A stretch of DNA of 54,007 bases from Candidatus Portnoybacteria bacterium (GTDB lineage: Bacteria; Patescibacteriota; Minisyncoccia; Portnoybacterales; GWB1-42-6), in the NCBI GenBank assembly GCA_016208745.1, contig JACQXN010000001.1, positions 1-54,007 of the forward strand. Direction: 5' to 3'. How positions within the stretch are numbered: position 1 is the stretch's first letter; each line of letters starts with the position of its first letter. The notes under the pieces were generated by a model. That model was not told the origin of the DNA. It worked only from the letters and a program-made list of their open reading frames with translations, and searched no databases. Made by a program: the position numbers and the translations under genes. Of this stretch, positions 8,375 through 24,482 are shown piece by piece.

Positions 8375-9529
8375 CTAATCGCCAAAAATTTGTTGGTTAT
8401 CCGTTGATAGGCGCAGCGCTTCTTTGAGTTTGGGCGAGTCTACAAAATCATTCAAGACGCTATCTTGCTCAGCCAGAGAGATAAAAATACGCGCGTAGGT
8501 TTTATCCGAGCCATGCTGGGAATCGATTAATTCCTCATCTTTGCCCCCAAATTTCTTCATATCAGATAAATCATAAAAATTAAATCCGTAGTGATTAAAT
8601 AAATTTTCCAGTGTGCGGCTTAAGTTATCGGCAACAGCTTTATCCAAACTATCTATTGCCTGAATTTTTTGATACGCAACCAAGGCGTAAGGCGGCATAT
8701 AGCCAATAACAATTATATGGTATTTCTTACAGGCAGTCAGGAAGTCCTCTACGTTTTGCAAAGATTTTGTATCTAGCTCGCTTCCATATTCAAGGTTATT
8801 CTGACCGGGTTTAATCCTTGCGAGTATCTCGTCTATTGAACTTTTTAATATTGTCTGCTTATCGGGATTATTAATAAAATCATTATAATAAAAACTGCCA
8901 TCATTGCGGAATCCGTTTCCATTGGCGATTGCGTTTAAGCCAACTTGCGACATATCTGTTTTGTTTTGGAATACATCAGAGAGGCGAAACTTTTTTTGAA
9001 AATAGTCAAGGTATATCTTTCTCCAGCCATAGATAAAAAATTGTTCCCACGCCGGATCATTGGCCGTTGAGGACCGATGAAGAACAAAAACCTGATTAAT
9101 ATCTGTTGATTCGGGTTTAAAGCCGGGTTTAAACCATCGTTGGTCAGTCCCAAGAATAATAAATTTTGGCCGTTTTTCTGGCGGCAGGCTTTCCAAAAAA
9201 TTTACGAGGTCGCCGGATTCTTTGGCGCCGCCGCCGGCATTATAAAATGTTATTTCGGGGCGAAAAAACTCAGAACGGATATTCATTACCCTTGATGTGC
9301 CAAGAGCTAAAACTTGCGCGCCGCGCAGTTTTGCAGATAAAATTTTAAAATTTTTGTCAACATCGCTATAGGCGCGGCCAAATAAAACCGGACTAGAAGA
9401 TAATTGTTGTTCGGCCACCTTTTTTATGGACATCGCCTCTCCGCTGGACGTAAAAACTAAAAAAGGCAAAAAATATAAAAATGCCAGAGGCAAGCTGAAT
9501 AAAAAGATATTGCGTAAAAACTTTATCAT
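8375..9529 (-). CDS. DltD/AlgJ-like SGNH-fold envelope acyltransferase partner, signal-anchored
   Basis: N-terminal hydrophobic anchor, then 'SSPVLFGRAYSDVD..VLALGTSRVMN..FIILGTDQRWF'. Located directly downstream of the MBOAT gene. Start was placed at the internal Met at 9529; the track ORF start 9622 overlaps the MBOAT gene by 91 nt. Confidence 0.7.
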   Translation of the reverse strand: MIKFLRNIFLFSLPLAFLYFLPFLVFTSSGEAMSIKKVAEQQLSSSPVLFGRAYSDVDKNFKILSAKLRGAQVLALGTSRVMNIRSEFFRPEITFYNAGGGAKESGDLVNFLESLPPEKRPKFIILGTDQRWFKPGFKPESTDINQVFVLHRSSTANDPAWEQFFIYGWRKIYLDYFQKKFRLSDVFQNKTDMSQVGLNAIANGNGFRNDGSFYYNDFINNPDKQTILKSSIDEILARIKPGQNNLEYGSELDTKSLQNVEDFLTACKKYHIIVIGYMPPYALVAYQKIQAIDSLDKAVADNLSRTLENLFNHYGFNFYDLSDMKKFGGKDEELIDSQHGSDKTYARIFISLAEQDSVLNDFVDSPKLKEALRLSTDNQQIFGD

Positions 9530-9531
9530 AT

Positions 9532-11013
9532 CTAGAATTGAAAATAAATGAATGATTTTGCGCCAAGATAGCCAAGCATTAAAATCCATAGAATAACCAA
9601 ATAATAAGCGCCGAGACGCCAAGAAAGCGGCCAGCGAATAATCAAGTTTCTGATGGAGGTTGATTTGGCGGCAGAAAATTCCACGATTTCCATAAACAGG
9701 ATAGCCGCCAGTATTAAAGATAAAAATGCTTTACTAGAACCAATCGTCGCGATTGTCAGGACTTGATAACGCAAAAATTCAAAATCAAAAATTTGCGCTA
9801 AACCCTTAGGCAGGTTGCTAATGATATGCCAGGCATCATTCAATGTTTGGGCGCGGAAAAATACCCAGCTTATACAAACCAGACCAAATGTCGCTGCTAT
9901 CTGCCAGATACGATATATTTTTGGCCATTGTCGGGCGCCAAGCTTTTGCGCCAATTTTTCCCGCCATGTTTTTGTTGCTTGTCCAAAAATCAAATAAAAG
10001 CCATGGGTTGCCCCAAGCATAACAAATGTCCAGTTGGCGCCATGCCATAAACCAATCAAGACAAACGTGATAAACAAAGCCCAATAAAGCCTGACGCGGG
10101 TCTTTTTTTTGGCTGCCAGCGCCAAAGGATAATACATATAATCGCGCAGCCAGCTGGATAATGATATATGCCATCGCCGCCAGAATTCTGTAATTGATCT
10201 GGATGCGTAAGGGCGATCAAAATTTTTCACTAATTCAACTCCCAGCACCCTGGCTGAACCAATCGCGATATCTGAATAGCCGGAAAAATCACAATATAAT
10301 TGATAGGCGAAAAAAACAACGGCCAATAAAATCGCGGCAGAATTTGTCTGATAGAGACCGCCGTAAATTTTATCAACCATCAGCGCTAATTGATCAGCGA
10401 TAACCAATTTTTTAAAAAATCCCCAGAGCATCAATGTCAAGCCATCCATTACCCGTTCGTAATCAAAGCTTTTCTTTTGGTGAAGTTGAGGTAATAAATG
10501 TTGCGGCCGTTCAATCGGACCGGCGACTAACTGCGGGAAAAACATTACGTAGAGCGCATAAATTCCAAGATGTTTTTCTGCCGGATGCTTGCCCCGATAT
10601 ACTTCAATAACGTAACTTAAACTCTGAAAGATATGGAAAGATAAGCCAATGGGCAATATTAATTTTAGGCTTTGGACGGAATAATTCCAGTTGATAACGT
10701 CTGCGAGATAAGAAATATTTTGATTAAAGAAGTTAAAATATTTAAAAACGAGCAAAGTGCCCAAGTTGCCAATAATGCTTAGAATCAGCAAAAGTTTTCG
10801 TTTTTTTCCTTGCTGTTTTTCAATCATCCGCCCCAGAGAATAATCAAGAAGAATCAGAAAAACCAAAACTAAAATATACCAGGGCATAAACGACATATAA
10901 AAATAAGCGCTTGCCAATAACAAAAACACCCACTGATAGCGGCGCGGGATAAGAAAAAACGCAAATATTACTATCGGGAAAAAAATTAAAAAGGCTAGCG
11001 AATTAAAAAGCAT
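9532..11013 (-). CDS. MBOAT-family membrane O-acyltransferase (DltB/AlgI-like)
   Basis: Multi-TM protein. MBOAT His region 'WRRWHISLSSWLRDYMYYPL'. Confidence 0.9.
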   Translation of the reverse strand: MLFNSLAFLIFFPIVIFAFFLIPRRYQWVFLLLASAYFYMSFMPWYILVLVFLILLDYSLGRMIEKQQGKKRKLLLILSIIGNLGTLLVFKYFNFFNQNISYLADVINWNYSVQSLKLILPIGLSFHIFQSLSYVIEVYRGKHPAEKHLGIYALYVMFFPQLVAGPIERPQHLLPQLHQKKSFDYERVMDGLTLMLWGFFKKLVIADQLALMVDKIYGGLYQTNSAAILLAVVFFAYQLYCDFSGYSDIAIGSARVLGVELVKNFDRPYASRSITEFWRRWHISLSSWLRDYMYYPLALAAKKKTRVRLYWALFITFVLIGLWHGANWTFVMLGATHGFYLIFGQATKTWREKLAQKLGARQWPKIYRIWQIAATFGLVCISWVFFRAQTLNDAWHIISNLPKGLAQIFDFEFLRYQVLTIATIGSSKAFLSLILAAILFMEIVEFSAAKSTSIRNLIIRWPLSWRLGAYYLVILWILMLGYLGAKSFIYFQF

Positions 11014-11021
11014 ATCATTCC

Positions 11022-11783
11022 CTATTTCTTAAGAAAGAATTTATCAACTAAAATGTTTAGATTATCAGATTTGCCTTCTGTCTTTGAGCAAAGCAAAGAA
11101 ATAGTTTTTGCTACATCTTGCGGTTTTGTCAGCTGTTGATTTGGAAATTTTTCTTTTAGCAATTCAATAAATCGATCCGGTATGTCGGCATTGATGCCGC
11201 CGGCAATAAAGCCCGGGGCAATAGCATAAACCCTGACATTATATTGCTTCAACTCATTGGCAAATTCTTTCAGCAATCCCTTAAGTGCGGATTTAGCGGA
11301 AATATAACCGCCAAAATTTCCCGATACGAGATTTTCTTCAATCGCCGACGTTGTTAAGCCAATTAATGTTCCTTCCCGGCGCTGCTTTAATAACAAGGTA
11401 ATATTTTTAAAAAAACTAAAACCGCCGAACAGACCAACGTTAAACTGGGCCTTAAATGTTTCCAAATCAAGATCGCTGACTTTTTTTCTGATAATCGGGG
11501 AATTGGCGCAATGAATGCCTATATAAATCGGGCCGATATTTTTTTCTATTTTTTGCAATACCTTGGCAACCTCATCTGGATTTTTTATGTCGCATTGATA
11601 GACAAAAACATCGGGCGAAGAGAAGGATTCGCAAATTTTTTTTACTTCGCTTTTTGGGGTTTCATGATAAAGCAAGGCAACCGCAAAGCCATCTTTGGAT
11701 AATTGTTGGCCAATAGCTTTTCCTAATAACCCAAATCCCCCGCTGATAACAGCCAATCTTTTATTGTTATTTATTTTATTCAT
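11022..11783 (-). CDS. Short-chain dehydrogenase/reductase (SDR)
   Basis: Gly-rich NAD(P)-binding 'VISGGFGLLGKAIG'. Catalytic 'YISAKSALK' (YxxxK). Confidence 0.85.
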   Translation of the reverse strand: MNKINNNKRLAVISGGFGLLGKAIGQQLSKDGFAVALLYHETPKSEVKKICESFSSPDVFVYQCDIKNPDEVAKVLQKIEKNIGPIYIGIHCANSPIIRKKVSDLDLETFKAQFNVGLFGGFSFFKNITLLLKQRREGTLIGLTTSAIEENLVSGNFGGYISAKSALKGLLKEFANELKQYNVRVYAIAPGFIAGGINADIPDRFIELLKEKFPNQQLTKPQDVAKTISLLCSKTEGKSDNLNILVDKFFLKK

Positions 11784-11788
11784 AAACT

Positions 11789-12232
11789 TTATTTTAGGAC
11801 ACGGATAAGCGCCTGACCATCAACCAATAGATCTTCAGATGATTTATCAATGATTTTTGTAGATAGGGCAATAGTATGAAAAGCGTCATTTTTATGCAAA
11901 ATAATTCCGCTGACCAGAATTTGCTGTCCAGAAAGCATCGGCCGATGAAAATTTAGGCTCTGCGATAGATATAAGCTGTATTTGCCGGGCAATTCCATGC
12001 CAATAAGACGAGAAAAAAGCATACCGGCAATCATGCCGTGAGCAACCGGATATTTAAACTTGGTCTCTGATGCGTATTCGGGATCTGTATGTATAGGATT
12101 GGCATCTCCTGACAATTTAACAAAGTCCGCAATAACTTCGCCGTTAATTAAAAAATCAAACTCTGCTTTTTGTCCAATAAGCAATTGGTCGTAGGTAAAT
12201 TGTTTTAATTGATCAGGCATTTGTATCGCCAC
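11789..12232 (-). CDS. MaoC-like (R)-hydratase/dehydratase hot-dog protein
   Basis: 'SGDANPIHTDPEYASETKFKYPVAHGMIAGMLFSRLIG'. A GTG start is implied at 12232; an alternative ATG lies at 12220. Confidence 0.8.
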   Translation of the reverse strand: MAIQMPDQLKQFTYDQLLIGQKAEFDFLINGEVIADFVKLSGDANPIHTDPEYASETKFKYPVAHGMIAGMLFSRLIGMELPGKYSLYLSQSLNFHRPMLSGQQILVSGIILHKNDAFHTIALSTKIIDKSSEDLLVDGQALIRVLK

Positions 12233-12449
12233 CCTTTGATACTATTAAACTAATGACATCGGAAAAATTTTTTACCGACATAACCTCGTCATAATTAAAC
12301 TCGATATTAAATGCCTTTTCTACTTCCGAAACTAAAATAATGGCATTCAATGAATCCCAGCTGGAGGTATTTTCCGGCGACAATTCCGGACCGATTTTTG
12401 CTTCGTCAACTCCCAAGACGGCTGAAAATATTTTTGTTAAGCGGCTCAT
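12213..12449 (-). CDS. Acyl/peptidyl carrier protein (DltC/ACP-like)
   Basis: 78 aa. Phosphopantetheine attachment motif 'WDSLNAIILVSEVEKAF'. Confidence 0.85.
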   Translation of the reverse strand: MSRLTKIFSAVLGVDEAKIGPELSPENTSSWDSLNAIILVSEVEKAFNIEFNYDEVMSVKNFSDVISLIVSKGGDTNA

Positions 12450-14185
12450 AAGGATTTTTCTTTAATTGCGACCGATTGACTGAAATGTTGCGCGTTGCTA
12501 ATTAAATCCGGCAGGCCGATCGAATAATGAATAATCTCGTTGTCTTGATTTGTTTGGTTAAATCCAAGCGACGATAAAAAATCCTTAGCCGGTTTATTTT
12601 TCTGAGTTGGCGTAAAAGCGGCTGTTAATTGCCCAAATCCGCATCGGTCCAGCTCCCTTGCTAAATAATGCATAAATTTTTGCTCTACCCCGCGACCCAT
12701 GACCCGACAGCTCATTAAAAAAGTATCTAGATCGATAACGTCTCTATTTATTGGTTTTAAGACCGCTATAATTGTTTTGCCGTAATCGCCAAATTTATCT
12801 GATATGTTTCCTGAAAAAATCAGAGCGCCATCATCAATCAACTGTTCTATTTCTTTTTCAGAATAACGCTTAGTCGTTAAATTAAATTGGTTTGTTTTTA
12901 TGGTTAGTTGCGAAAGGCGGCCAATTGCCGCTCTGTTATTTTTTTCAATAATAATCTCGATATTTAAGGCCGCGATATAATCTTTGAGGTTTTTGGTTGA
13001 ATATAATATATTCTTTCGCTGGCGCTCATCCGCATACATTTTTGCTTTTTGCCAATCTTCTTCTGTCAGGCTAAATTGATTAAAAACATTGAGCGAATAT
13101 AAGGTCGGAACATAATGTTCTGGCGCTGGCGGCAATTCTGGCACAGCAACATCAGGCAACATAGAACGAACCAATCCTCGATTAACAGGATCGTCGTCAA
13201 TAAAAACAAGGCTGTCTAGTCCGATGTTAATTTCTTGTGCAATTTCGATCATATTTTTAGCTTTGTCTTCCCAATTCAGCCTAATTGCCGCAAAATGATT
13301 TTCTTTTAGAATCATATGAGGATTTTGAGCAAAAACTTCTGAAACATCTTCCGGATTATTCTTGCTGTTAATAGCCAGAATTATGCCCCGGTTATATAAA
13401 TCCAAAAGAGCATGTTGAAAATTTTGATAAGCCAAACCCGGATAATCAGGTCCAAGAGCAATGCCAAGCGGGCCTGTTTCGCCAACCACGCCGCCCCATA
13501 GGGTGTTATCCAAATCAAGAACAATGCATTTTTTTGTTTGGCCTAAAAGAGCCCGAATATAACTAGACCACTCCTGCGTTAAGGCCAAAAGAAAGTCATT
13601 ATTAAAAGGGATATCAAAGGCATAGAGCCCGCGAAAGTCTCTGATATGCCGTTCTCCTTGTTGTTGCGCCAAAGCATTAATGTCAAAGATATAAAGATTT
13701 TTTATTTCTTGGCTCAAATCCTTAAGTTTCTGATTGGCTTGTTGGATAAGAATAAATAGAGGGCTTAATTCAAAAAGATTGCCATAAGCGCCTAAATAAG
13801 GAATTAGAAAGCTTGTCATTATAACTGGCGCTGTTGTTTGCAGGCAATACTCTTTTACATCGGTTAATAATTCCAGAAAATGCTGCTCGTCAGAGGTAAA
13901 AGAGGATTTTAGATATGGATTAGCGTCAAAAAGAATAAAAGTGACGTCTGCCGGATTCTGATACAAAGCGCTTTGCCGGTTTTTTAAATGAAGATAATAT
14001 TGTTTATACGGAACAGCAAAAATTTCCGGATAAATTCCCTGGCTTAATAAAAAACCTTTGAGGATTTTTTGCAAAATCTCATCAGTAAAATTGGTAATTA
14101 AGTTAATTTTAATCTTTTTTTTGCCCCCGTCGTTTGGGGCGCCTTTGTTTGCGTTAGCTAATTTTAGATAGTCAAGCAGTTCCAT
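12446..14185 (-). CDS. FkbH-like HAD-superfamily (IIIC) domain protein with C-terminal GNAT-like domain (predicted glyceryl-ACP loader)
   Basis: HAD motif I 'CIVLDLDNTLWGGVVGE'. Architecture is typical of FkbH/OzmB-type enzymes. Confidence 0.75.
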   Translation of the reverse strand: MELLDYLKLANANKGAPNDGGKKKIKINLITNFTDEILQKILKGFLLSQGIYPEIFAVPYKQYYLHLKNRQSALYQNPADVTFILFDANPYLKSSFTSDEQHFLELLTDVKEYCLQTTAPVIMTSFLIPYLGAYGNLFELSPLFILIQQANQKLKDLSQEIKNLYIFDINALAQQQGERHIRDFRGLYAFDIPFNNDFLLALTQEWSSYIRALLGQTKKCIVLDLDNTLWGGVVGETGPLGIALGPDYPGLAYQNFQHALLDLYNRGIILAINSKNNPEDVSEVFAQNPHMILKENHFAAIRLNWEDKAKNMIEIAQEINIGLDSLVFIDDDPVNRGLVRSMLPDVAVPELPPAPEHYVPTLYSLNVFNQFSLTEEDWQKAKMYADERQRKNILYSTKNLKDYIAALNIEIIIEKNNRAAIGRLSQLTIKTNQFNLTTKRYSEKEIEQLIDDGALIFSGNISDKFGDYGKTIIAVLKPINRDVIDLDTFLMSCRVMGRGVEQKFMHYLARELDRCGFGQLTAAFTPTQKNKPAKDFLSSLGFNQTNQDNEIIHYSIGLPDLISNAQHFSQSVAIKEKSL

Positions 14186-14188
14186 AAT

Positions 14189-14536
14189 TTAAAAAGCGAC
14201 GGCAAAACCAGCGACATAATCTGTAGAATGCGATAAGCTGACTTTTAGTTGATAATTGTGCGCTTGTTTTGATAATAATCTAACCAGAGGCTTTTTACCT
14301 GCTTTAATGATTTCAAAATCGTGATACGTCAGGGTTTCAGGGCAAGCTTTAATGACCGCTTCTTTGACAGCAAGGCGCGACGCTAAAAAAATAGCTGGGT
14401 TATTGTGTGATTTAAATTGCTTGTATTCGGCTGGGGTTAAAATTAATTCTGCAGCTCTGGCCAGAAATTTAATTTTTTTAAAGCGTTCCAATTCGATAAT
14501 GTCAACACCCACACCGAATAATTTTGGCCGGTGCAT
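14189..14536 (-). CDS. acpS: Holo-ACP synthase (4'-phosphopantetheinyl transferase AcpS)
   Basis: 'FGVGVDIIELERFKK..ASRLAVKEAVIKA'. First gene of the operon. Confidence 0.85.
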   Translation of the reverse strand: MHRPKLFGVGVDIIELERFKKIKFLARAAELILTPAEYKQFKSHNNPAIFLASRLAVKEAVIKACPETLTYHDFEIIKAGKKPLVRLLSKQAHNYQLKVSLSHSTDYVAGFAVAF

Positions 14537-14568: not shown

Positions 14569-14937
14569 CTATTCCACAATTATTTCCCCTGTCATATCAG
14601 GATGAATATCGCAACGATAAGAATAGCTACCTTTTTCAATAAAAGTCTTTTCAAATATGGCGCCGCAGATAATTTCTCCGCTATCCCAGCCTTCTCCGGT
14701 TACCGTATGGTTAACCGCATCTTCGTTTTGCCAGATGATTTTTGTGTTGCGAGGCACTTTTAAAACAGCCGGGTCAAATTTGAAATTCATTATTATGATT
14801 TTTTGTTCGCTGCCCTCTGTTAAGGGGACTTGATTAACTTCGTTTTTGTTGAATTTTTGAATAGCAAAAGCGGCTCCGACGGTTAGCGCTACTAAGACGA
14901 TTATAAGAATTAGTCTATTTTTCATATCAAATATCAT
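14569..14937 (-). CDS. Type-1 blue copper protein (plastocyanin/amicyanin-like cupredoxin), exported
   Basis: Signal/anchor, then complete ligand set: H in 'AVNHTVT' and 'YRCDIHPDMTGEI' (Cys-x2-His-x2-Met). Confidence 0.85.
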   Translation of the reverse strand: MIFDMKNRLILIIVLVALTVGAAFAIQKFNKNEVNQVPLTEGSEQKIIIMNFKFDPAVLKVPRNTKIIWQNEDAVNHTVTGEGWDSGEIICGAIFEKTFIEKGSYSYRCDIHPDMTGEIIVE

Positions 14938-14946
14938 ATGATTGCT

Positions 14947-15432
14947 TTATGCGATTTGCGCAAAAAGCACGACATAGTTTTTGCCGTATTTCTTGGCGCA
15001 TTTGGGGCAGGTGGTATAAGAAAAATAAATTTTCTTTAGTTCTTTGCCTTTGGATTTTATATATTCTTCCATTTCTTTGGCCCATTTGCCGACATTCTGA
15101 TACGGCCCCTCAAAAACTTTTGTTAAGAAAGTTCCGGAAATCGTTGCCATTTTGGCACCGGGCACTTCTTTCAAAACATCAATATAAATATCCGATCCCC
15201 AGAGAGATTTTTCGTCGGTCAGCATTAATTGATACGGCGCTTTTGCGCCAGCGTCCTCTATAAGTTCAATATTCTTAATGATTTTGGCGCCCATATTAAG
15301 CGGGATATGGAAAAAACTTGTTACATGGTCTTTGACAAAAATTTTATTATCCCAAGTTATCTCTTTTTCCTGCCACGGTTCGGGATTAAAAGGGTCGCAG
15401 CAGCCTGTTGGTTTGATTGTTTGATGATCCAT
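14947..15432 (-). CDS. Hypothetical protein with C-terminal CPKC motif
   Basis: 161-aa ORF; no family recognised. Confidence 0.6.
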   Translation of the reverse strand: MDHQTIKPTGCCDPFNPEPWQEKEITWDNKIFVKDHVTSFFHIPLNMGAKIIKNIELIEDAGAKAPYQLMLTDEKSLWGSDIYIDVLKEVPGAKMATISGTFLTKVFEGPYQNVGKWAKEMEEYIKSKGKELKKIYFSYTTCPKCAKKYGKNYVVLFAQIA

Positions 15433-15451
15433 ATATTAATAAAATATTCGT

Positions 15452-15583
15452 ATTCTCCCTCCCCTCCTCAGATGAGGAGGGCTTCGGCCGTGAGCTCAGC
15501 CGAACGGGAATAAAAGGGGAGGTGTTGATTCTGAATTCAACACCCCACCTGAATCCTCCCCTCATCTGAGGGGAGGAGGAATT
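15452..15583. repeat. Family B MITE-like element (copy B1, intergenic) with ~22-bp terminal inverted repeats
   Basis: TIRs 'attctccctcccctcctcagatgagg' ... 'cctcatctgaggggaggaggaatt'. Internal hairpins 'ttcggccgtgagctcagccgaa' and 'gtgttgattctgaattcaacac'. Second copy at 38214-38310. Confidence 0.85.
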
Positions 15584-15590
15584 GGAATAA

Positions 15591-16427
15591 TTATTTATTG
15601 ACTTTATTTATATACTCCCAAAAAATATTCATTAAATATCTTGTATTTTCTCCCACCTTCCCATTCCCTATTTTATTATCGTCAATTTTAACCACCGGCA
15701 CAATACCTCTTGAAGTTGAGGAAATGAAAGCTTCGCTGGCGCCAAGCGCTTCCTTTAATTTAAGCGGCCGTTCGATCACTTTAAATTTATTTTTTGCCAA
15801 TTTTAAAATTAATCCCCTCCTTGTGCCGTGCAATATGTTTTCTTTCGCCGTAATTAACGAGTTGTTTTTGAATATAAAAAAGTTGCAGGTCGCGCCTTCC
15901 AGAACAAATCCTTTTGAGGTATAGAGAATTTCAAAAGCCTTCTTTTTTTCTTTAAGCCCCATTAGGCTCATCATGGTAGCGTAATTATTTGATTTTGCTT
16001 CGGGTTTTTCTCTTTGATGCTCGCAGGTTATCATTTTTACGCCTTTTTCATAGATATGGGGCGGGCATTCAGGCAATTCTTTCGTTGTAATAAAAAATGT
16101 CGGGCAATCATAATCGCAAGTTATGCCATTTTGGCTTTCCCCGCCGGTTAGAACGATTCTTATGGCAGCGTCTTCTATTTTGTTTTTAGCCAAAAGGCTT
16201 AAAATTATATTCCCTACTTCTTTTTTTGAAGCAGGGACTTTAAGATTTAAGCTTTTGGCTGATTTTTCAAAGCGGGCAAGATGTTCGTTTAATAAAAATG
16301 GTTTGCCATTATAAGTTCTTAAATAATCAAAAACTCCATATCCGCGCAAAAGGCCGATATCATTGATGCTAACTTTGGCTTTTTCTTCGGGAATGACTTT
16401 TCCGTTTAGATAGCAATATTTTGGCAT
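15591..16427 (-). CDS. Class IV PLP-dependent aminotransferase (branched-chain/D-amino-acid aminotransferase family)
   Basis: 'LNGKVIPEEKAKVSINDIGLLRGYGVFD', 'IRIVLTGGE'. Confidence 0.85.
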   Translation of the reverse strand: MPKYCYLNGKVIPEEKAKVSINDIGLLRGYGVFDYLRTYNGKPFLLNEHLARFEKSAKSLNLKVPASKKEVGNIILSLLAKNKIEDAAIRIVLTGGESQNGITCDYDCPTFFITTKELPECPPHIYEKGVKMITCEHQREKPEAKSNNYATMMSLMGLKEKKKAFEILYTSKGFVLEGATCNFFIFKNNSLITAKENILHGTRRGLILKLAKNKFKVIERPLKLKEALGASEAFISSTSRGIVPVVKIDDNKIGNGKVGENTRYLMNIFWEYINKVNK

Positions 16428-20464: not shown

Positions 20465-22276
20465 CTAACTTTTATCCATTTCTGATTTTAATCTATTTTG
20501 ACTTAAAAACAAAACTTCATTATCGTTTCCATTTTTTCCAATCGCCTGCCAAGGTTGTGTTATATTTCCTTTTCTTCCCGTGTAAAAAACCAAAGAACAA
20601 TCCAGTCGTGGTTTTGTTTCGTTTATATTTTTTATATACCTTTTGTAAAAAGGAATATATTTTATAAAAAATGATCTTATGAAATCGTCAAAATCTCTGA
20701 AAATTTTTGATTCTTCTTCCACCACTCTGTAAATAATATAATCTTTTGCAGCTTCTCTGCTTCTTTCCAAAATTTTTTCTTCCGACTCCAAATCGTTTCC
20801 GAAAATATTTTTTCTGGCATTTAAAACCAACTTCTCAAAGTCCGGCTGATTACATATGTCTTTTCCAATATTTTCTTTAGTTTCTGATAAATGTTTTTCA
20901 AAATCGACTGAATATTTTTCGTAAAGTGTTGATATGGGGATTACCGAAAATAATCCGTTATATTTATCCGCAATGTTGGTCAAAGTTTGAACATATTTCT
21001 CCGTTTTTTCTTTTGGAATTTTATTTACATTTTGCACTCTTCCGTCTCCGGGCGAAACAAAAATTTTCAGACCCGGACTATAAATTTTTACGACTTCTAC
21101 ACTAATTCTTTGTAAATTTTCCAATGTTGCTTCCTCGCATAATTCGGCGTTATCAACCAGTAAATTTGGATTTTTGCAACCGCCCCAAAATTGAAAAAAT
21201 CTAATGGGCAGATTTTTAGAAACTTTTCTTTCTATTTTTTCCAAAACTAACTTTTTCACATCTTCGGGCGGTAACGCACCTGCTCTAAATTTTTTATTAG
21301 TCAAAATTTTATATATTTTCTCGGCCAATTCACTATTTTCTTTTTCTAAAAAATTCCGACTATGTTTATCTCTATCCCTTAACTTTATAAATTTTTCGGA
21401 GGTAATTAAATCGTATAAACTTTTATCTCTAATACTTCCTACTTCATCGGTAATATTTGCGTCAGTATGATAAACATTTCCGAAAATATCTATTTGAGCC
21501 ACAAATTTATACCGCCTTCGGTCAGCTCCAACAATCGGAGAGTCTGGAGTCCATTCATAGCCAAATTGTTTTTTATCAATTTCCGACAACTTTTTATACA
21601 AAACTTCTGTTTTTTCTTTTGGTAATTTCATTTCTTCCTTCGCTCGTCCAGTTATAGTTGCTATTTCAATCCAAGGGATTATTCCATTTTTTCGGCAAAA
21701 AATAAATAATTCGGGTATTTCTCGATAATTGTCCTCGCAAATAATGGAATTTAAAGCTAATCTTTTGTCTTTGGCGAATCCTATATCAACCAACATTTTT
21801 ATTTTTTCTAAAAATATTTTTTGCGCTCCTTTTAATCCGACTAATTTGTCATTTATTTCGGGATTGAAAGAATTCAGCTTAACCATTAAATTCACATCTC
21901 TTTCATTCAACCATTCCGCAAGTTCTTTGCTTAAAAGCAAGCTGTTTGTAAATAAAACTACTCTTAAATCCAGACTTTTTATAAAATCAATCAACTCTTT
22001 CAGGTTTCTATACAATAAAGGTTCCCCGCTTCCAGTTATGCTTACGACTTTTATTCCCAAATCTTTTGCTTGCTTAATGTTGTTTTTTATTTCATCTAAA
22101 GATAGTTTTGTTTTGTTGTTTTCTCTTTTTTCACTAATAAAGGGAGCATTACTTAGACAATAAACACACTTGAGATTACATTCCTCAATTACATGTATTC
22201 TTAATTCCAATAAAAGATTATTATTTTCAAAATCTTTTTCGGAAAAATCAATCGCTTTCAGAAATGGTGGTTTCAT
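20465..22276 (-). CDS. Radical SAM enzyme (MoaA/viperin-like CxxxCxxC core) fused to a ~300-aa C-terminal domain of unknown function
   Basis: 'IEECNLKCVYCLSNAPF' (Cx3Cx2C). 'VVSITGSGEPLL' SAM-binding GGE-like motif. No recognisable family in the C-terminal half. Very AT-rich gene. Confidence 0.8.
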   Translation of the reverse strand: MKPPFLKAIDFSEKDFENNNLLLELRIHVIEECNLKCVYCLSNAPFISEKRENNKTKLSLDEIKNNIKQAKDLGIKVVSITGSGEPLLYRNLKELIDFIKSLDLRVVLFTNSLLLSKELAEWLNERDVNLMVKLNSFNPEINDKLVGLKGAQKIFLEKIKMLVDIGFAKDKRLALNSIICEDNYREIPELFIFCRKNGIIPWIEIATITGRAKEEMKLPKEKTEVLYKKLSEIDKKQFGYEWTPDSPIVGADRRRYKFVAQIDIFGNVYHTDANITDEVGSIRDKSLYDLITSEKFIKLRDRDKHSRNFLEKENSELAEKIYKILTNKKFRAGALPPEDVKKLVLEKIERKVSKNLPIRFFQFWGGCKNPNLLVDNAELCEEATLENLQRISVEVVKIYSPGLKIFVSPGDGRVQNVNKIPKEKTEKYVQTLTNIADKYNGLFSVIPISTLYEKYSVDFEKHLSETKENIGKDICNQPDFEKLVLNARKNIFGNDLESEEKILERSREAAKDYIIYRVVEEESKIFRDFDDFIRSFFIKYIPFYKRYIKNINETKPRLDCSLVFYTGRKGNITQPWQAIGKNGNDNEVLFLSQNRLKSEMDKS

Positions 22277-22488
22277 AGTTTAATCAGTTCGTCCAGGGAA
22301 ATGTCTAAGGCCTTGGCGATTTTTGCCATAACAAAAACTGATGGCTTTTTAATTACTCCTGTTTCAACTTTAGTTAATGTCGTATAAGGAACATCTGCCT
22401 TTCTTGCAAAATCGTCTTGTGAAAGTTCCAGTTTTTGCCGAAGTGATTTTATTTTTTTCCCCAATTTATTGTCTTGACTACTTTCCAT
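22273..22488 (-). CDS. XRE-family helix-turn-helix transcriptional regulator
   Basis: 'KLGKKIKSLRQKLELSQDDFARKADVPYTTLTKVETG'. The stop overlaps the radical-SAM start by 4 nt. Confidence 0.85.
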   Translation of the reverse strand: MESSQDNKLGKKIKSLRQKLELSQDDFARKADVPYTTLTKVETGVIKKPSVFVMAKIAKALDISLDELIKL

Positions 22489-22569
22489 AATTTGATAACA
22501 TTAAATTGTTCTGCTATAATTCCATACAGTTATATGCTAACAAATTTTTATGTTTTAAGCAAGCGAATT

Positions 22570-22760
22570 TTAGGGAGTACATCTGTTGTGTGCGCACGGG
22601 AGGGCGGGGCAAACACAACTTCCTTTCTGGCGGCGCATTTCGCAAAGCGAAATACGAAAAATTGCGGCGGCGAAAAAAGAAGCGGCGAAAGCGAGGGCGG
22701 GCAAAAATTCCTTCCCCCCAACCCCCTTCCTTTTTGCCCGCCCGAGCGGAAAAGTTTTTA
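22570..22760. other. GC- and purine-rich, stop-codon-poor structured non-coding region (candidate recombination site or ncRNA)
   Basis: Nested hairpins 'gttgtgtg..cacaac', 'catttcgcaaagcgaaat', and a 13-bp stem 'gggcgggcaaaaa..tttttgcccgccc'. Three 'ggcggcg' repeats. Open in 5 reading frames. Confidence 0.5.
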
Positions 22761-22865
22761 TCAAAATTTGCAATCCGGATTTTCGTCAAAAAAATCAACC
22801 AATCTTTTTTCTTTCGTCTCTGGCGAAAGGTAAAGAGATAATTTAATTTTGACTGCCCAAATAAT

Positions 22866-24482
22866 ATGACAAACGAAAATCAAACCAAGAAGTTTTTTAT
22901 CTACGCCCGCAAGTCAACAGACAGCGAAGACAGGCAAATTCGCAGTATTGCCGATCAACTTGCTGAATTGCGAGAGCTAGCGAGAAAAGAAAACATTGAT
23001 GTTGTTGATACTTTGGTAGAAAAGCAAACTGCGAAAAAGCCCGGACGGCCTGTCTTCGCTGAAATGTTAAAAAGAATTGAAGCGGGCGAAGCCGAGGGAA
23101 TTTTAGCGTGGCACCCCGATAGATTGGCGAGAAATTCCGTTGACGGCGGACAAATCATTTATCTTGTGGATACCGGAATAATCAAAGAGCTAAAATTCCC
23201 AACTTTTTGGTTTGATCCAACTCCGCAAGGCAAATTTATGCTTTCAATCGCTTTCGGGCAGTCAAAATACTACATTGATAATCTTTCGGAAAATATCAAA
23301 AGAGGACATCGGCAAAAATTGAAAAACGGTTTATGGCCTCAAATGGCTCCGCTTGGTTATCTCAACAACAAAGAGACAAAACAGATTTATGTGGACAAAG
23401 AAAAATCACAGCTTATTAAAAAGGCATTTGAGGCCTACGCGAGTGGAAAAAATACGCTTAAAGAAATCCGAAAGATTATCAATGATCTCGGCTTGAAAGG
23501 GCGGCGAGGTTCTTTGCTTTCTGTTTCCAATTATCAATATCTTTTACAAAATCCTTTTTACTATGGATTGATAAGGTATAACGGCGAATATTTTGAAGGA
23601 AAGCACGAACCGATTATTTCAAAGAAACTTTTTGACGAAACGCAAGAAGTGATGAAAAGAAAATCTAAACCACAAAAATCAGATGAGATGAAATTTTTTC
23701 TTTACAGAGGATTTTTCCGTTGCGGGGAATGTGGATTTACCATAACGGCGGATAAAAAGATAAAACCGAGCGGGAAAGAATACATCTACTATTACTGCAC
23801 CAAGAAAAATCCAAACCACATCTGCTCGCAAAATGTTTTTACCAGAGAAGAAAAAATTTCATCTCAAATCAACGAAGCCATACAAAAAGTCTCTTTGCCC
23901 GATGATTGGGCTGATAAAATGCTGAACGAATTAGAAAAAGAGAAAAACGAGAAAGCCCAATCATCTCGCTTTTTTGCTCAAAAAATTCAAGACGAAATAA
24001 AAACGATTGACGAAAAGCTGGAAAAACTGATGAACGCTTATCTTGAAAACGCCTTAAACCTTGCCGAATATCGGGAAGCCAAAAACAAACTCGTCAATCA
24101 AAAACAGCTTTTGAAAGACAAACTGACAGCTTTTGAGCAAAAAAGCAATAATCGGTTCGAACTCGCCGCCAAATTCATAAACTCCGTAAAACAAGCCGAA
24201 ATTATCGCTTTGCAAGAAAATCCCGAACAGGGTCGGGATTTTCTAAAAAAGATTGGTTCGAACTTCCGTTTGAGCGGGCAGAAATTGTTTTTGGATTTCA
24301 AAAATCCCTTCAAAATCCTCACGGAAGCCGAGCCCCGCCTCTGGCGGGGCGAGGCAACAATCGCCCAAAAGTCGCAATCTGAAAATTGGCGGAAGGAGCG
24401 GGATTCGAACCCGCGATACCTTGCGGTATACTCGCTTTCCAAGCGAGCGCACTCGGCCTCTATGCGACCCTTCCTGAATTAG
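22866..24482 (+). CDS. Large serine recombinase (resolvase catalytic domain + recombinase domain + zinc ribbon)
   Basis: Catalytic 'FFIYARKSTDSEDRQ' (Ser nucleophile), 'GILAWHPDRLARN'. Zinc ribbon 'FFRCGECGF..YYYCTKK'. The last ~32 codons run antisense through tRNA-Ser, so the true stop may be earlier or the overlap is real. Confidence 0.85.
   Translation: MTNENQTKKFFIYARKSTDSEDRQIRSIADQLAELRELARKENIDVVDTLVEKQTAKKPGRPVFAEMLKRIEAGEAEGILAWHPDRLARNSVDGGQIIYLVDTGIIKELKFPTFWFDPTPQGKFMLSIAFGQSKYYIDNLSENIKRGHRQKLKNGLWPQMAPLGYLNNKETKQIYVDKEKSQLIKKAFEAYASGKNTLKEIRKIINDLGLKGRRGSLLSVSNYQYLLQNPFYYGLIRYNGEYFEGKHEPIISKKLFDETQEVMKRKSKPQKSDEMKFFLYRGFFRCGECGFTITADKKIKPSGKEYIYYYCTKKNPNHICSQNVFTREEKISSQINEAIQKVSLPDDWADKMLNELEKEKNEKAQSSRFFAQKIQDEIKTIDEKLEKLMNAYLENALNLAEYREAKNKLVNQKQLLKDKLTAFEQKSNNRFELAAKFINSVKQAEIIALQENPEQGRDFLKKIGSNFRLSGQKLFLDFKNPFKILTEAEPRLWRGEATIAQKSQSENWRKERDSNPRYLAVYSLSKRAHSASMRPFLN
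24387..24474 (-). tRNA. tRNA-Ser (anticodon GGA), type II with long variable arm, CCA encoded
   Basis: Acceptor GGAAGGG/TCCTTCC. Anticodon stem CTCGC/GCGAG with loop TTGGAAA. Variable arm ATACC-GCAA-GGTAT. T-arm GCGGGTTCGAATCCCGC. Ends GCCA. Confidence 0.85.

What the first reader, a model, noticed from the sequence alone, without database searches (positions are those of the whole stretch)
8375..14536. Seven-gene operon AcpS-FkbH-ACP-MaoC-SDR-MBOAT-DltD-like: a Dlt-type envelope acylation machine with the D-Ala ligase replaced by an FkbH glyceryl-ACP pathway
The MBOAT + DltD-like + small carrier protein trio is the core of Dlt-type systems, which esterify wall polymers with D-alanine. Here there is no DltA-like adenylating ligase. 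Instead the operon encodes its own phosphopantetheinyl transferase, an FkbH-family protein (established to load a glyceryl unit from 1,3-bisphosphoglycerate onto a carrier protein), a MaoC dehydratase and an SDR. Chemically, dehydration of glyceryl-S-ACP gives the enol of pyruvyl-ACP, and an SDR could reduce that to lactyl-ACP. The MBOAT/DltD pair would then transfer a lactyl (or glyceryl/pyruvyl) ester onto a surface polymer, an isosteric D-Lac-for-D-Ala analogue of teichoic-acid D-alanylation. The genes are tightly packed, with overlaps of 4 and 20 nt and small gaps elsewhere, consistent with one transcript. I am not aware of this combination being described as a system.
Basis: inference. 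Interest (0 to 1): 0.8.

Follow-up and report, generated by a model that had tools for sequence, protein, structure and literature searches.

The report
Carrier-protein-fed envelope acylation operon
A candidate-phyla bacterium carries a seven-gene operon that probably builds a three-carbon (glyceryl, most likely lactyl) unit on its own carrier protein and passes it across the membrane to a surface polymer; I found no paper describing this acyl-donor route, and variants of it occur in archaea and in the lab organism Sinorhizobium meliloti.

Summary
The seven minus-strand genes exist as described: AcpS, FkbH, ACP, MaoC, SDR, MBOAT and a membrane-anchored SGNH protein whose best structural match is DltD. 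Junctions are 3, -4, -20, 5, 8 and 2 nt. All catalytic motifs are intact.

One correction: the MBOAT is not DltB-type. It ends in FIYFQF, the FXYXXF "acyl shuttle" that Dlt carries on DltX and PatA/AlgI-type enzymes carry fused.

The main risk is that the two halves are independent modules. FkbH-ACP cassettes occur widely without an MBOAT. Only 2 of 14 well-flanked MBOAT-SGNH pairs have a cassette.

Four results argue for real coupling:
- Cassette-linked CPR MBOATs form one clade.
- All 17 linked MBOATs, from about six lineages, lack the LGGN(R)/Asn312 signature of unlinked ones (15 of 17 also lack Trp333) and match DltB at these positions.
- A Magasanikbacteria relative has a short DltB-like MBOAT and two DltX-like microprotein genes inside the cassette.
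- S. meliloti, a Rhodobacteraceae isolate and Tistrella carry minimal FkbH-ACP-MBOAT-SGNH clusters.

A lactyl product is inferred from MaoC-SDR fusions and PKS precedent. The acceptor is unknown. No description was found. Verdict: new variant of MBOAT-SGNH acylation, interest 0.72.

The parts
14189..14536 (-). AcpS-type 4'-phosphopantetheinyl transferase (115 aa), dedicated activator of the operon's ACP
   Evidence: PF01648 at 2.5e-12; TIGR00516 acpS 61 bits against a cutoff of 59.8. An AcpS gene lies within 3 kb of FkbH in 29 of 85 related loci. These are mostly CPR and archaeal lineages.
12446..14185 (-). FkbH-family protein (579 aa): FkbH_N domain, HAD-IIIC phosphatase domain and a C-terminal transferase domain. 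Predicted to load a glyceryl unit from 1,3-bisphosphoglycerate onto the ACP.
   Evidence: TIGR01686 292.5 bits (cutoff 146.65); TIGR01681 HAD-IIIC; PF21211; PDB 3slr (BF1531) at 2e-52. In 27 homologues the following are invariant: D224/D226 (DLDNT, 13502-13516), S274, K308, D330/D331 and C493 (SCRV, 12701-12712).
12213..12449 (-). Stand-alone acyl carrier protein (78 aa); Ppant serine in WDSL (residues 31-34, 12348-12359)
   Evidence: PF00550 at 1.1e-6. An ACP lies within 3 kb of FkbH in 78 of 85 non-redundant loci across bacteria and archaea. The same xWDSLx motif is present in the S. meliloti, Rhodobacteraceae and Tistrella ACPs.
11789..12232 (-). MaoC/(R)-hydratase-type hotdog dehydratase (147 aa); hydratase-2 motif GDANPIH at 12089-12109
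   Evidence: PF01575 at 3.3e-14; motif located. A MaoC gene lies next to FkbH-ACP in 33 of 85 loci. It is fused to an SDR in 8 loci from Betaproteobacteria, Acidobacteriota, Omnitrophota and Rhodospirillales.
11022..11783 (-). Classical SDR / FabG-like ketoreductase (253 aa); GGFGLLG cofactor motif 11721-11741, YISAK 11292-11306
   Evidence: adh_short_C2 at 1.4e-32; the best NCBIfam matches are FabG-type but all fall below their cutoffs. The gene is accessory: absent next to the cassette in L004, L007 and L008.
9532..11013 (-). MBOAT (493 aa) with catalytic His324 (WHG, 10039-10047). About 97 residues lie beyond the DltB-alignable core and contain two hydrophobic stretches. The C-terminal acyl-shuttle motif FIYFQF (Tyr490) is at 9535-9552.
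   Evidence: PF03062 at 3.9e-23. TIGR04091 DltB 168 bits, below the 375 cutoff. DltB 6bug at 2e-30 over residues 118-396. The FXYXXF motif is defined in PMC12148441 and is conserved in all ~470-530-aa relatives. The protein lacks the LGGN(R)/N312/W333 signature of cassette-unlinked relatives and resembles DltB at those positions.
8375..9529 (-). TM-anchored SGNH-fold protein (384 aa), DltD-like. Catalytic Ser79 (GTSR, 9290-9301) and Asp336/His339 (DSQH, 8513-8524).

Best explanation
The operon encodes a self-contained, carrier-protein-dependent MBOAT-SGNH pathway that esterifies an extracytoplasmic polymer, most likely a surface glycan, with a three-carbon acyl unit drawn from glycolysis.

Proposed steps:
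1. AcpS converts apo-ACP to holo-ACP. CPR bacteria generally lack fatty-acid synthesis, so a dedicated transferase makes sense (established knowledge).
2. FkbH takes 1,3-bisphosphoglycerate, dephosphorylates it through its HAD-IIIC site (D224/D226), holds the glyceryl group on Cys493 and transfers it to the ACP. This is the FkbH/OzmB mechanism (established for the family, inferred here).
3. MaoC eliminates the 3-OH, giving 2-hydroxyacryloyl, which tautomerises to pyruvoyl-ACP (inferred).
4. The SDR reduces this to lactyl-ACP (inferred).
5. Acyl-ACP docks on the cytoplasmic face of the MBOAT, as DltC does on DltB. His324 catalyses transfer of the acyl group to Tyr490 of the fused C-terminal FIYFQF shuttle (mechanism shown for DltB/DltX and PatA, inferred here).
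6. Ser79 of the membrane-anchored SGNH protein takes the acyl group and transfers it to a hydroxyl of the polymer (inferred).

In short, the system is Dlt-like in its donor logic (carrier protein plus dedicated loader) and PatA/AlgI-like in its MBOAT architecture (fused shuttle). Operon variants without the SDR, or without both MaoC and SDR, would deliver pyruvoyl or glyceryl instead.
For: - Gene content, motifs and tight junctions.
- The operon AcpS-FkbH-ACP-MaoC-(SDR)-MBOAT-SGNH recurs in Paceibacterota, Sungbacteria, Doudnabacteria, Saccharibacteria and Taylorbacteria. An MBOAT lies near the cassette in 9 of 11 CPR-type relatives.
- The window operon and the S. meliloti cluster contain no other acyltransferase that could consume the acyl-ACP.
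- In an NJ tree of 56 MBOATs, all 12 CPR cassette-linked MBOATs form one clade that contains no unlinked member.
- FkbH-ACP and MBOAT-SGNH were joined independently in a high-GC bacterium (L144), Nitrosopelagicus (L018), S. meliloti pSymB, Rhodobacteraceae SC52 and Tistrella mobilis.
- All 17 linked MBOATs lack the LGGN(R) turn and Asn312, and 15 of 17 lack Trp333. In the 40 unlinked MBOATs these features are 90-100% conserved. DltB, the one MBOAT with a proven carrier-protein donor, has the 'linked' state at all six discriminating positions.
- L001 and L005 carry a short DltB-like MBOAT, two SGNH-like genes and two 39-43-aa single-TM microprotein ORFs ending FIYTLF and FIYNNF. One ORF lies between FkbH and ACP, the other just after the SDR. 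Only 84 of 47,075 stop-to-stop segments end in F[ILV]Y..F, and nearly all of those are MBOATs.
- For the lactyl product: eight independent MaoC-SDR fusion proteins sit beside FkbH-ACP. There is also a precedent in FkbH loading modules that give D-lactyl-ACP from 1,3-BPG (PMC7901079; the BryA DH-KR-FkbH-ACP module is from my own knowledge).
- For the FXYXXF shuttle mechanism: PMC12148441.
Against: - Nothing is shown biochemically.
- From the SGNH side, only 2 of 14 MBOAT-SGNH pairs with at least 4 kb of flank on both sides have an FkbH cassette. The others sit in glycan clusters with no detectable ACP.
- From the FkbH side, only 11 of 85 loci have an MBOAT within 8 kb. One close relative (L087, 67% identical FkbH) has the five-gene cassette with no MBOAT nearby. 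Both halves therefore work without each other elsewhere.
- The window's MBOAT has the fused-shuttle architecture for which acetyl-CoA is the demonstrated donor (PatA).
- The tree is an unbootstrapped NJ tree. 'Linked' loci were partly collected through FkbH similarity, so clade and taxonomy are confounded.
- I could not check the LGGNR signature in experimentally characterised AlgI or PatA sequences.
- The SDR is absent from three CPR operons, so lactyl cannot be the universal product.
- This FkbH subfamily has an extra N-terminal domain and, to my knowledge, no characterised member.
Confidence: 0.6

Rival explanations
1. Two independent glycan-tailoring modules happen to be co-transcribed. 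The MBOAT-SGNH pair is an ordinary acetyl-CoA-dependent O-acetyltransferase of the PatA/PatB or AlgI/AlgJ kind. The AcpS-FkbH-ACP-MaoC-SDR cassette feeds an unlinked cytoplasmic acyltransferase, for example one that N-acylates an amino sugar.
For: - Twelve of 14 well-flanked MBOAT-SGNH pairs lack a cassette.
- Most FkbH-ACP cassettes lack an MBOAT. They sit beside DegT aminotransferases and hexapeptide or GNAT acyltransferases.
- L087 has the cassette alone.
- The fused FXYXXF architecture matches acetyl-CoA-using PatA.
Against: - The window and the S. meliloti cluster encode no other acyltransferase and have no adjacent glycan genes.
- The linked MBOATs are monophyletic within CPR.
- The signature shared with DltB appears convergently in about six lineages.
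- DltX-like microprotein genes are interleaved with FkbH and ACP in L001 and L005.
- A free-standing shuttle protein and SGNH gene lie directly after the SDR in L126.
Confidence: 0.15
2. The coupling is real, but the group delivered by the window's operon is not lactyl. It could be glyceryl, with MaoC and SDR acting elsewhere. It could be pyruvoyl, if the SDR has another role. It could also be an oxidised species such as 2-hydroxy-3-oxopropionyl.
For: - The SDR is absent in L004, L007 and L008 and in the thaumarchaeal FkbH-ACP-MaoC loci.
- The alphaproteobacterial and L144 versions have neither MaoC nor SDR.
- All FabG-type NCBIfam matches of the SDR are far below their cutoffs.
Against: - MaoC and SDR are tightly coupled here, with a 5-nt gap.
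- They are fused into one protein next to FkbH-ACP in eight loci, which implies consecutive action on the same tethered substrate.
- Dehydration of a 3-hydroxyacyl thioester is what the intact hydratase-2 motif predicts.
- The FkbK (HADH), FkbI (ACAD) and FkbG (OMT) enzymes of the oxidative methoxymalonyl route are absent.
Confidence: 0.2
3. The FkbH-like protein of this long, N-terminally extended subfamily does not use 1,3-bisphosphoglycerate. The cassette assembles a different small acyl group on the ACP.
For: - Characterised FkbH and OzmB proteins are about 366 aa and lack the FkbH_N domain.
- The only structure of the long form (3slr, BF1531) is deposited as an 'uncharacterized protein'.
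Against: - The score is twice the TIGR01686 cutoff.
- All four HAD motifs and the Cys of the C-terminal domain are invariant.
- The protein is almost always paired with a stand-alone ACP, as in tetronate and methoxymalonyl pathways.
Confidence: 0.08
4. The operon is a precursor-supply cassette for a polyketide or tetronate natural product.
For: FkbH-ACP pairs are best known from such pathways. A Burkholderia plasmid homologue sits among FabH-like and phenazine-type genes.
Against: There is no PKS, NRPS, FabH-like, FkbI/K/G or tetronate gene in the window or in any CPR relative. The neighbours are glycosyltransferases, Wzx/Wzy and an MBOAT-SGNH pair.
Confidence: 0.02

Closest known systems
Dlt pathway (DltA, DltB, DltC, DltD, DltX) for D-alanylation of teichoic acids
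   Same: - It uses a dedicated small carrier protein with its own loading enzyme, encoded with an MBOAT and a TM-anchored SGNH protein whose closest structural match is DltD.
- It uses an FXYXXF tyrosine shuttle.
- The MBOAT shares DltB's states at the six positions that separate carrier-linked from unlinked relatives.
- The relative L001 even has a short DltB-like MBOAT and DltX-like microproteins.
   Different: - There is no DltA. The loader is an FkbH phosphatase/transferase that uses a glycolytic acyl phosphate rather than ATP and an amino acid.
- The acyl unit is remodelled on the carrier by MaoC and SDR.
- In the window the shuttle is fused to the MBOAT, with no DltX.
- The MBOAT scores 168 bits against the DltB equivalog cutoff of 375.
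- The product is a neutral hydroxyacyl ester, not a cationic aminoacyl ester.
- The likely acceptor is a glycan.
PatA/PatB, AlgI/AlgJ/AlgX, WssH/WssI and PatA1/PatB1 MBOAT-SGNH O-acetyltransferases
   Same: - The MBOAT is about 490 aa, with a C-terminal extension beyond the DltB-alignable core that ends in FXYXXF.
- A separate extracytoplasmic SGNH transferase is present.
- The genomic setting is polysaccharide clusters.
- Close unlinked relatives of the window's pair probably belong to this class.
   Different: - Those systems have no carrier protein and use acetyl-CoA (PMC12148441).
- Here a PPTase, an ACP and an acyl-ACP-building cassette sit in the same operon.
- The MBOAT has lost the LGGN(R)/Asn312/Trp333 signature of its carrier-less relatives.
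FkbH/OzmB glyceryl-ACP loaders (methoxymalonyl-ACP and tetronate pathways) and FkbH-containing PKS loading modules that give a lactate starter (BryA-type DH-KR-FkbH-ACP)
   Same: - The FkbH domain has intact HAD and Cys motifs and is paired with a stand-alone ACP.
- Dehydratase and ketoreductase activities are positioned to convert glyceryl-ACP to lactyl-ACP.
   Different: - The acyl-ACP is not consumed by a PKS, NRPS or FabH-like enzyme. It goes to a membrane acyltransferase.
- The dehydratase is a free MaoC hotdog protein and the reductase is a free SDR.
- The FkbH carries an extra N-terminal domain (BF1531 type).
- There is no FkbI, FkbK or FkbG.

Membership tests
Dlt pathway | DltA-type adenylating D-alanine:carrier protein ligase | tested here: not met
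   No AMP-binding domain in the operon or in any window ORF of 450 aa or more.
Dlt pathway | Small phosphopantetheinylated carrier protein encoded with the MBOAT | tested here: met
   78-aa PP-binding protein with a WDSL serine motif, plus its own AcpS.
Dlt pathway | DltB-type MBOAT (about 400-425 aa, no fused shuttle) | tested here: not met
   TIGR04091 168 bits against a cutoff of 375. The protein is 493 aa, with about 97 residues beyond the DltB-alignable region ending in FIYFQF. It does share DltB-like residues at the six discriminating positions.
Dlt pathway | Separate DltX microprotein carrying FXYXXF | tested here: not met
   The only TM-associated ORF in the window ending in FXYXXF is the MBOAT itself. 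Separate DltX-like ORFs do exist in relatives L001, L005 and L033.
Dlt pathway | DltD: N-terminally anchored SGNH-fold protein with a Ser-Asp-His triad | tested here: inconclusive
Bacterial MBOAT-SGNH polymer acyltransferases (PatAB/AlgIJ type) | MBOAT with catalytic His and a C-terminal FXYXXF acyl-shuttle motif on extra TM helices | tested here: met
   His324 lies in WHG and FIYFQF occupies residues 488-493. The motif is conserved in every ~470-530-aa relative. The definition comes from PMC12148441.
Bacterial MBOAT-SGNH polymer acyltransferases (PatAB/AlgIJ type) | Adjacent extracytoplasmic SGNH transferase | tested here: met
   The MBOAT and SGNH genes are 2 nt apart. The pairing holds in about 49 of 64 non-redundant loci.
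Bacterial MBOAT-SGNH polymer acyltransferases (PatAB/AlgIJ type) | Acyl-CoA (acetyl-CoA) donor, no carrier protein | not testable with these tools
   The context argues against it: an ACP, a PPTase and a loader share the operon, and the LGGN(R)/N312/W333 signature is lost. Donor identity needs biochemistry.
FkbH family (glyceryl-ACP loaders) | FkbH domain above the curated threshold, with HAD-IIIC motifs I-IV | tested here: met
   TIGR01686 292.5 bits against 146.65. D224, D226, S274, K308, D330 and D331 are invariant.
FkbH family (glyceryl-ACP loaders) | Conserved Cys for the glyceryl-S-enzyme intermediate | tested here: met
   C493 in S-C-R is invariant in 27 homologues. Its assignment as the acyl-enzyme residue rests on the OzmB mechanism summarised in PMC9057759 and on my own knowledge. 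I did not align it to OzmB.
FkbH family (glyceryl-ACP loaders) | Cognate stand-alone ACP | tested here: met
   The ACP gene overlaps FkbH by 4 nt. An ACP lies within 3 kb in 78 of 85 loci.
FkbH family (glyceryl-ACP loaders) | Uses 1,3-bisphosphoglycerate | not testable with these tools
   Requires an in vitro loading assay.
Methoxymalonyl-ACP pathway (FkbG/H/I/J/K) | 3-hydroxyacyl-CoA dehydrogenase (FkbK), acyl-CoA dehydrogenase (FkbI) and O-methyltransferase (FkbG) | tested here: not met
   None of these domains is in the operon. MaoC and a classical SDR are present instead.

The most novel reading that the evidence does not exclude
MBOAT-SGNH envelope acylation has a third, previously unrecognised donor class besides acetyl-CoA and D-alanyl-DltC. 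The donor is a glycolysis-derived C3 hydroxyacyl unit (glyceryl, optionally converted to pyruvoyl or lactyl, or O-methylated), built on a dedicated ACP by an FkbH loader. MBOATs of this class can be recognised by the loss of the LGGN(R)/Asn/Trp signature. If so, glyceroyl or lactyl esters decorate surface polymers in CPR bacteria, marine Thaumarchaeota and Alphaproteobacteria, including S. meliloti. The system would have arisen several times by recruiting either fused-shuttle or DltB/DltX-type MBOATs.
Probability: 0.5. Interest if true: 0.8.

Novelty: new variant of a known kind. Interest (0 to 1): 0.72.

Why it matters
- The 2025 mechanistic paper on PatA/PatB (PMC12148441) states that MBOAT-SGNH pathways other than Dlt lack a carrier protein because they use acyl-CoA. 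This operon family would be a counter-example and would broaden the chemistry that bacteria and archaea can export onto envelope polymers.
- It would give a first concrete, testable hypothesis about cell-surface chemistry in Patescibacteria, whose envelopes are essentially uncharacterised. The pathway draws directly on 1,3-bisphosphoglycerate, which suits organisms with minimal metabolism and no fatty-acid synthesis.
- The residue signature separating carrier-linked from unlinked MBOATs is a candidate donor-specificity determinant. It could be used to annotate thousands of proteins now labelled only 'MBOAT family protein'.
- Minimal versions exist in culturable, genetically tractable Alphaproteobacteria (S. 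meliloti pSymB, Tistrella, a Rhodobacteraceae isolate). The idea can therefore be tested without cultivating a CPR organism.

Tried and rejected
2. Exact-sequence look-up of the window's FkbH on public contigs. It is not on record.
3. Metagenome scan with the 53-sequence ORF7 alignment.
4. A role for the class IV aminotransferase upstream (15591-16427) in converting pyruvoyl-ACP to alanyl-ACP. Rejected for three reasons. It is separated from the operon by a terminator-like hairpin and two unrelated genes. Its only homologue in 168 related loci lies about 8 kb downstream of FkbH in L062. The other flanking genes are not conserved neighbours either: the cupredoxin has a single hit and the hydrolase and DnaG have none.
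5. The methoxymalonyl-ACP and tetronate natural-product reading. Rejected because no FkbI/K/G, PKS or FabH-like genes are present.
6. hhalign of the alphaproteobacterial 'hypothetical' MBOAT partners against the ORF7 profile. Only weak, motif-level matches resulted (probabilities 0.6-47%). Their SGNH nature rests on a TM anchor, a GxS(S/T) motif and a DxxH-like motif seen by eye.
7. Literature. Ten searches found no paper linking FkbH or HAD-IIIC with MBOAT, DltB or SGNH as a system. Schultz 2023, Ma 2018 and Franklin 2004 are not held. I therefore could not check whether they mention such operons, or confirm the LGGNR motif in AlgI or PatA.
8. Promoter and terminator scans were uninformative for the operon boundaries. 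Promoter-like sites were at background level.

Full report
**1. Observation**

The window holds seven consecutive minus-strand ORFs between 8375 and 14536.
- AcpS: PF01648; TIGR00516 above its cutoff.
- FkbH: TIGR01686 292.5 bits against a cutoff of 146.65, plus the FkbH_N domain.
- ACP: PP-binding.
- MaoC dehydratase.
- A classical SDR.
- An MBOAT.

The FkbH N-terminal two-thirds match the crystal structure of Bacteroides BF1531 (3slr, 2e-52). The MBOAT core matches DltB (6bug, 2e-30).

No AMP-binding protein is present among the window's large ORFs. The closest FkbH homologues are named Patescibacteria, Magasanikbacteria, Paceibacterota, Sungbacteria and Kaiserbacteria, so the window comes from a CPR bacterium.

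**2. Catalytic competence**

- FkbH: across 27 homologues, HAD motifs I-IV (D224, D226, S274, K308, D330, D331) and Cys493 in an S-C-R motif are invariant.
- ACP: it has a WDSL serine motif.
- MaoC: it has the hydratase-2 motif GDANPIH.
- SDR: it has GGFGLLG and YISAK.
- MBOAT: it has WHG with His324.

**3.

The MBOAT extends about 97 residues beyond the region that aligns to DltB, with two further hydrophobic stretches. It ends in F-I-Y-F-Q-F.

PMC12148441 defines FXYXXF as the 'acyl shuttle'. Its invariant Tyr receives the acyl group from the MBOAT and hands it to the SGNH serine. In Dlt the motif sits on the microprotein DltX. In PatA, AlgI and WssH it is fused to the MBOAT on two extra helices.

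The window's MBOAT therefore has the PatA/AlgI architecture, not the DltB one. The motif is conserved in every ~470-530-aa relative examined. The same paper states that MBOAT-SGNH pathways other than Dlt lack a carrier protein because they use acyl-CoA. This is what makes the operon unusual.

**4. Is the operon conserved?**

In CPR relatives the order AcpS-FkbH-ACP-MaoC-(SDR)-MBOAT-SGNH recurs. It is usually embedded in glycan clusters containing glycosyltransferases, Wzx, Wzy and sugar-nucleotide enzymes. In the window itself the neighbours are DnaG/RpoD on one side and a cupredoxin and a hydrolase on the other. These are not conserved neighbours.

The closest relative (FkbH 67% identical) has two MBOAT-SGNH pairs after the SDR. 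Another equally close relative has the five-gene cassette alone. The SDR is missing in three CPR operons.

**5. The critical test: are the two halves really coupled?**

A scan of one genome per species found at least 596 FkbH relatives in bacteria and archaea. I labelled the neighbours of 85 non-redundant loci with phmmer and HMMs:

| Neighbour of FkbH | Loci (of 85) |
|---|---|
| ACP within 3 kb | 78 |
| MaoC | 33 |
| SDR | 21 |
| AcpS | 29 |
| MBOAT within 8 kb | 11 |

The AcpS cases are mostly CPR and archaea, lineages expected to lack a housekeeping ACP system. Elsewhere the cassette sits with GT1/2/4 glycosyltransferases, DegT, hexapeptide and GNAT acyltransferases, UDP-sugar dehydrogenases and sulfotransferases.

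I then scanned metagenomes for relatives of the SGNH protein. An MBOAT was almost always next door. However, only 2 of 14 pairs with at least 4 kb of flank on both sides had an FkbH cassette. The rest lie in glycan clusters (GDP-mannose dehydratase-type enzymes, DegT, NeuB, cytidylyltransferase, GTs) with no ACP.

Both halves therefore exist independently. The rival explanation, an ordinary acetyl-CoA-dependent O-acetyltransferase sitting beside an unrelated acyl-ACP cassette, had to be taken seriously.

**6. Evidence that favours coupling**

(a) *Phylogeny.* In an NJ tree of 56 MBOATs, all 12 CPR cassette-linked sequences form one clade with no unlinked member. Two of them (L109, L124) were retrieved through the SGNH search rather than the FkbH search. 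Unlinked sequences fall in sister clades.

(b) *Independent origins.* FkbH-ACP and MBOAT-SGNH are adjacent in unrelated lineages with distant MBOATs:
- a high-GC bacterium: FkbH-ACP-MBOAT-SGNH without MaoC or SDR (L144);
- Nitrosopelagicus: TM protein-MBOAT-FkbH-ACP-MaoC (L018);
- Sinorhizobium meliloti pSymB: MBOAT ending FLYQGF, a 409-aa TM protein with GGST and DPGH motifs, ACP and FkbH. It is flanked by RTX, LigD and peptidase genes rather than glycan genes;
- Rhodobacteraceae SC52: ACP, HAD-IIIC, MBOAT ending FIYFNF, and a hypothetical protein;
- Tistrella mobilis: hypothetical protein and MBOAT ending FIYAGF, ACP, a SAM methyltransferase and HAD-IIIC.

In the window and in S. meliloti, no other enzyme that could consume an acyl-ACP is present.

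(c) *A residue signature.* The 40 unlinked MBOATs carry RDYLYIPLGGN(R/K)...N312...WHGANWTF..W333G. The conservation figures are G298 90%, G301 95%, N312 93%, W333 100% and I239 97%. All 17 linked MBOATs lack the GGN turn and have a 4-10-residue insertion in its place. None has N312, 15 of 17 lack W333, and 15 of 17 have L239.

I added the DltB sequence recovered to this alignment. DltB shows the 'linked' state at all six discriminating positions: L239, M295, V298, K301, A312 and Y333. DltB is the only bacterial MBOAT with a demonstrated carrier-protein donor. The signature lies on both sides of the catalytic His324. It therefore tracks carrier linkage across roughly six independent lineages.

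(d) *A literal Dlt architecture in a relative.* In L001 (Magasanikbacteria) and L005 the MBOAT is short (393 aa), lacks the fused shuttle and carries the same DltB-like signature. Two GDSL/SGNH-like genes precede it. The cassette itself contains two small ORFs for single-TM microproteins ending ...PFIYTLF and ...VFIYNNF. The first lies in the gap between FkbH and ACP, and the second just after the SDR. A homologous microprotein occurs in the Saccharibacteria locus L033.

In L126 a free-standing 136-aa protein ending PFIYFQF and the SGNH gene follow the SDR directly. Among 47,075 stop-to-stop segments in all fetched loci, only 84 end in F[ILV]Y..F, and nearly all of those are MBOATs. Shuttle genes interleaved with the acyl-ACP-building genes are hard to explain unless the two halves work together.

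**7. Which acyl group?**

FkbH with a stand-alone ACP is the established route from 1,3-bisphosphoglycerate to glyceryl-ACP (PMC9057759; PMC7489565). Glyceryl-ACP is a 3-hydroxyacyl thioester, the substrate type of MaoC (R)-hydratases. Elimination gives the enol of pyruvoyl-ACP, and a ketoreductase then gives lactyl-ACP.

Two lines of evidence support consecutive action of MaoC and SDR. First, eight loci from Betaproteobacteria, Acidobacteriota, Omnitrophota and Rhodospirillales encode a single MaoC-SDR fusion protein beside FkbH-ACP. Second, FkbH-containing PKS loading modules are annotated as giving D-lactyl-ACP from 1,3-BPG (PMC7901079). The BryA DH-KR-FkbH-ACP module is a further precedent, from my own knowledge.

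The oxidative methoxymalonyl route is excluded because FkbK, FkbI and FkbG are absent.

The stereochemistry (D or L) cannot be read from the sequence. Operons without the SDR, or without both MaoC and SDR, imply that pyruvoyl or glyceryl (O-methylglyceryl in Tistrella) are delivered elsewhere. A lactyl ester is uncharged.

**8. Acceptor**

The acceptor is unknown. The glycan-cluster context in relatives points to a surface polysaccharide or glycoconjugate. Peptidoglycan or a teichoic-acid-like polymer cannot be excluded.

**9. Comparison with known systems, and novelty**

The system works like Dlt in donor logic. It works like PatAB/AlgIJ in MBOAT architecture. It borrows its loader chemistry from polyketide precursor pathways. 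It fails membership in the Dlt family: there is no DltA, no separate DltX, and the DltB equivalog score is below the cutoff. The presence of a carrier system conflicts with the carrier-less PatAB/AlgIJ class, although donor use itself was not testable here.

Ten full-text searches found no description of an FkbH or HAD-IIIC plus MBOAT system. The only co-mentions concern unrelated steps in cyanobacterial peptide clusters. Public annotations read 'HAD-IIIC family phosphatase', 'acyl carrier protein', 'MBOAT family protein' and 'hypothetical protein'. The library lacks most subscription journals, so 'undescribed' is provisional. I rate the finding a new variant of a known kind.

**10. Limits**

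- All evidence is comparative and structural-predictive.
- The tree is NJ without support values.
- 'Linked' and 'unlinked' are defined by what lies within the fetched flanks, so trans-acting cassettes would be missed.
- I could not verify the LGGNR signature in experimentally characterised AlgI or PatA sequences. I recall that AlgI-type proteins carry 'YIPLGGNR', but that is memory, not a test.
- The alphaproteobacterial partner proteins are called SGNH-like from motifs only.

My confidence that the MBOAT takes its acyl group from the operon's ACP is about 0.75. My confidence that the group is lactyl in this organism is about 0.5. My confidence in the overall mechanism as stated is about 0.6.

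Noticed in passing
L001:11721-11897 and L001:13209-13385 (also L005 and L033:1167-1370): Uncalled small ORFs encode single-TM microproteins ending FIYTLF, FIYNNF or FIYALF, which makes them DltX-like. They sit inside an FkbH-ACP-MaoC-SDR cassette next to a short, DltB-like MBOAT and two GDSL-like genes. The gene caller missed them.
   Followed up: partly
L126:2726-3136 (same as L127:904-1314): A free-standing 136-aa protein corresponds to the C-terminal shuttle module of the MBOAT and ends PFIYFQF. It lies between the SDR and the SGNH gene, with no MBOAT core gene adjacent. It looks like an intermediate between the fused and DltX-type arrangements.
   Followed up: partly
L085:11211-16566: The closest long-contig relative has two MBOAT-SGNH pairs in tandem after the cassette (SGNH-MBOAT, then MBOAT-SGNH). 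This suggests one acyl-ACP pool feeding two acceptors.
   Followed up: no
L163:4638-9689 (S. meliloti GR4 pRmeGR4d) and L168 (strain R14 pSymB): S. meliloti pSymB carries a minimal MBOAT, SGNH-like, ACP and FkbH cluster next to RTX calcium-binding protein genes. In strain R14 the FkbH match is split in two pieces and annotated 'HAD family hydrolase', so it may be a pseudogene there. FkbH relatives were found in 40 Sinorhizobium plasmid records.
   Followed up: partly
L072:11702-12823 and 18 other loci (cluster 4): A ~373-aa protein family with no Pfam match lies directly downstream of FkbH-ACP in 19 loci that lack an MBOAT. The representative checked (L072) is from an Acidobacteriota MAG. It is a candidate for the cytoplasmic acyltransferase that uses the acyl-ACP there.
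   Followed up: no
window 20465-24482: A 603-aa fusion of a radical-SAM domain with a DIT1/PvcA (isonitrile-synthase-like) domain lies in the lowest-GC stretch of the window (0.33). A large serine recombinase follows it. This may be an integrated element.
   Followed up: no
window 14569-16427: Upstream on the same strand lie a cupredoxin, a PF20603 'bacterial hydrolase' and a class IV aminotransferase. A strong terminator-like hairpin at 15546-15519 lies between the aminotransferase and the hydrolase. Only 32 nt separate the cupredoxin from AcpS, so co-transcription with the operon cannot be excluded. None of these genes is a conserved neighbour in relatives.
   Followed up: partly
L164:7998-11009 (Aquisphaera giovannonii plasmid) and L166 (Burkholderia ubonensis plasmid): FkbH relatives appear in other architectures. 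One is a 1003-aa 'HAD-IIIC' fusion protein in a planctomycete glycan cluster. Another is an FkbH next to a FabH-like KAS III and PhzA/PhzF genes, which is a natural-product context.
   Followed up: no
L018:7484-12349 (Nitrosopelagicus): A marine thaumarchaeon has a 313-aa TM protein (GSST and DSQH motifs), an MBOAT ending FIYFQF, FkbH, ACP and MaoC. MBOAT-SGNH acylation fed by a carrier protein may therefore also exist in archaea.
   Followed up: partly
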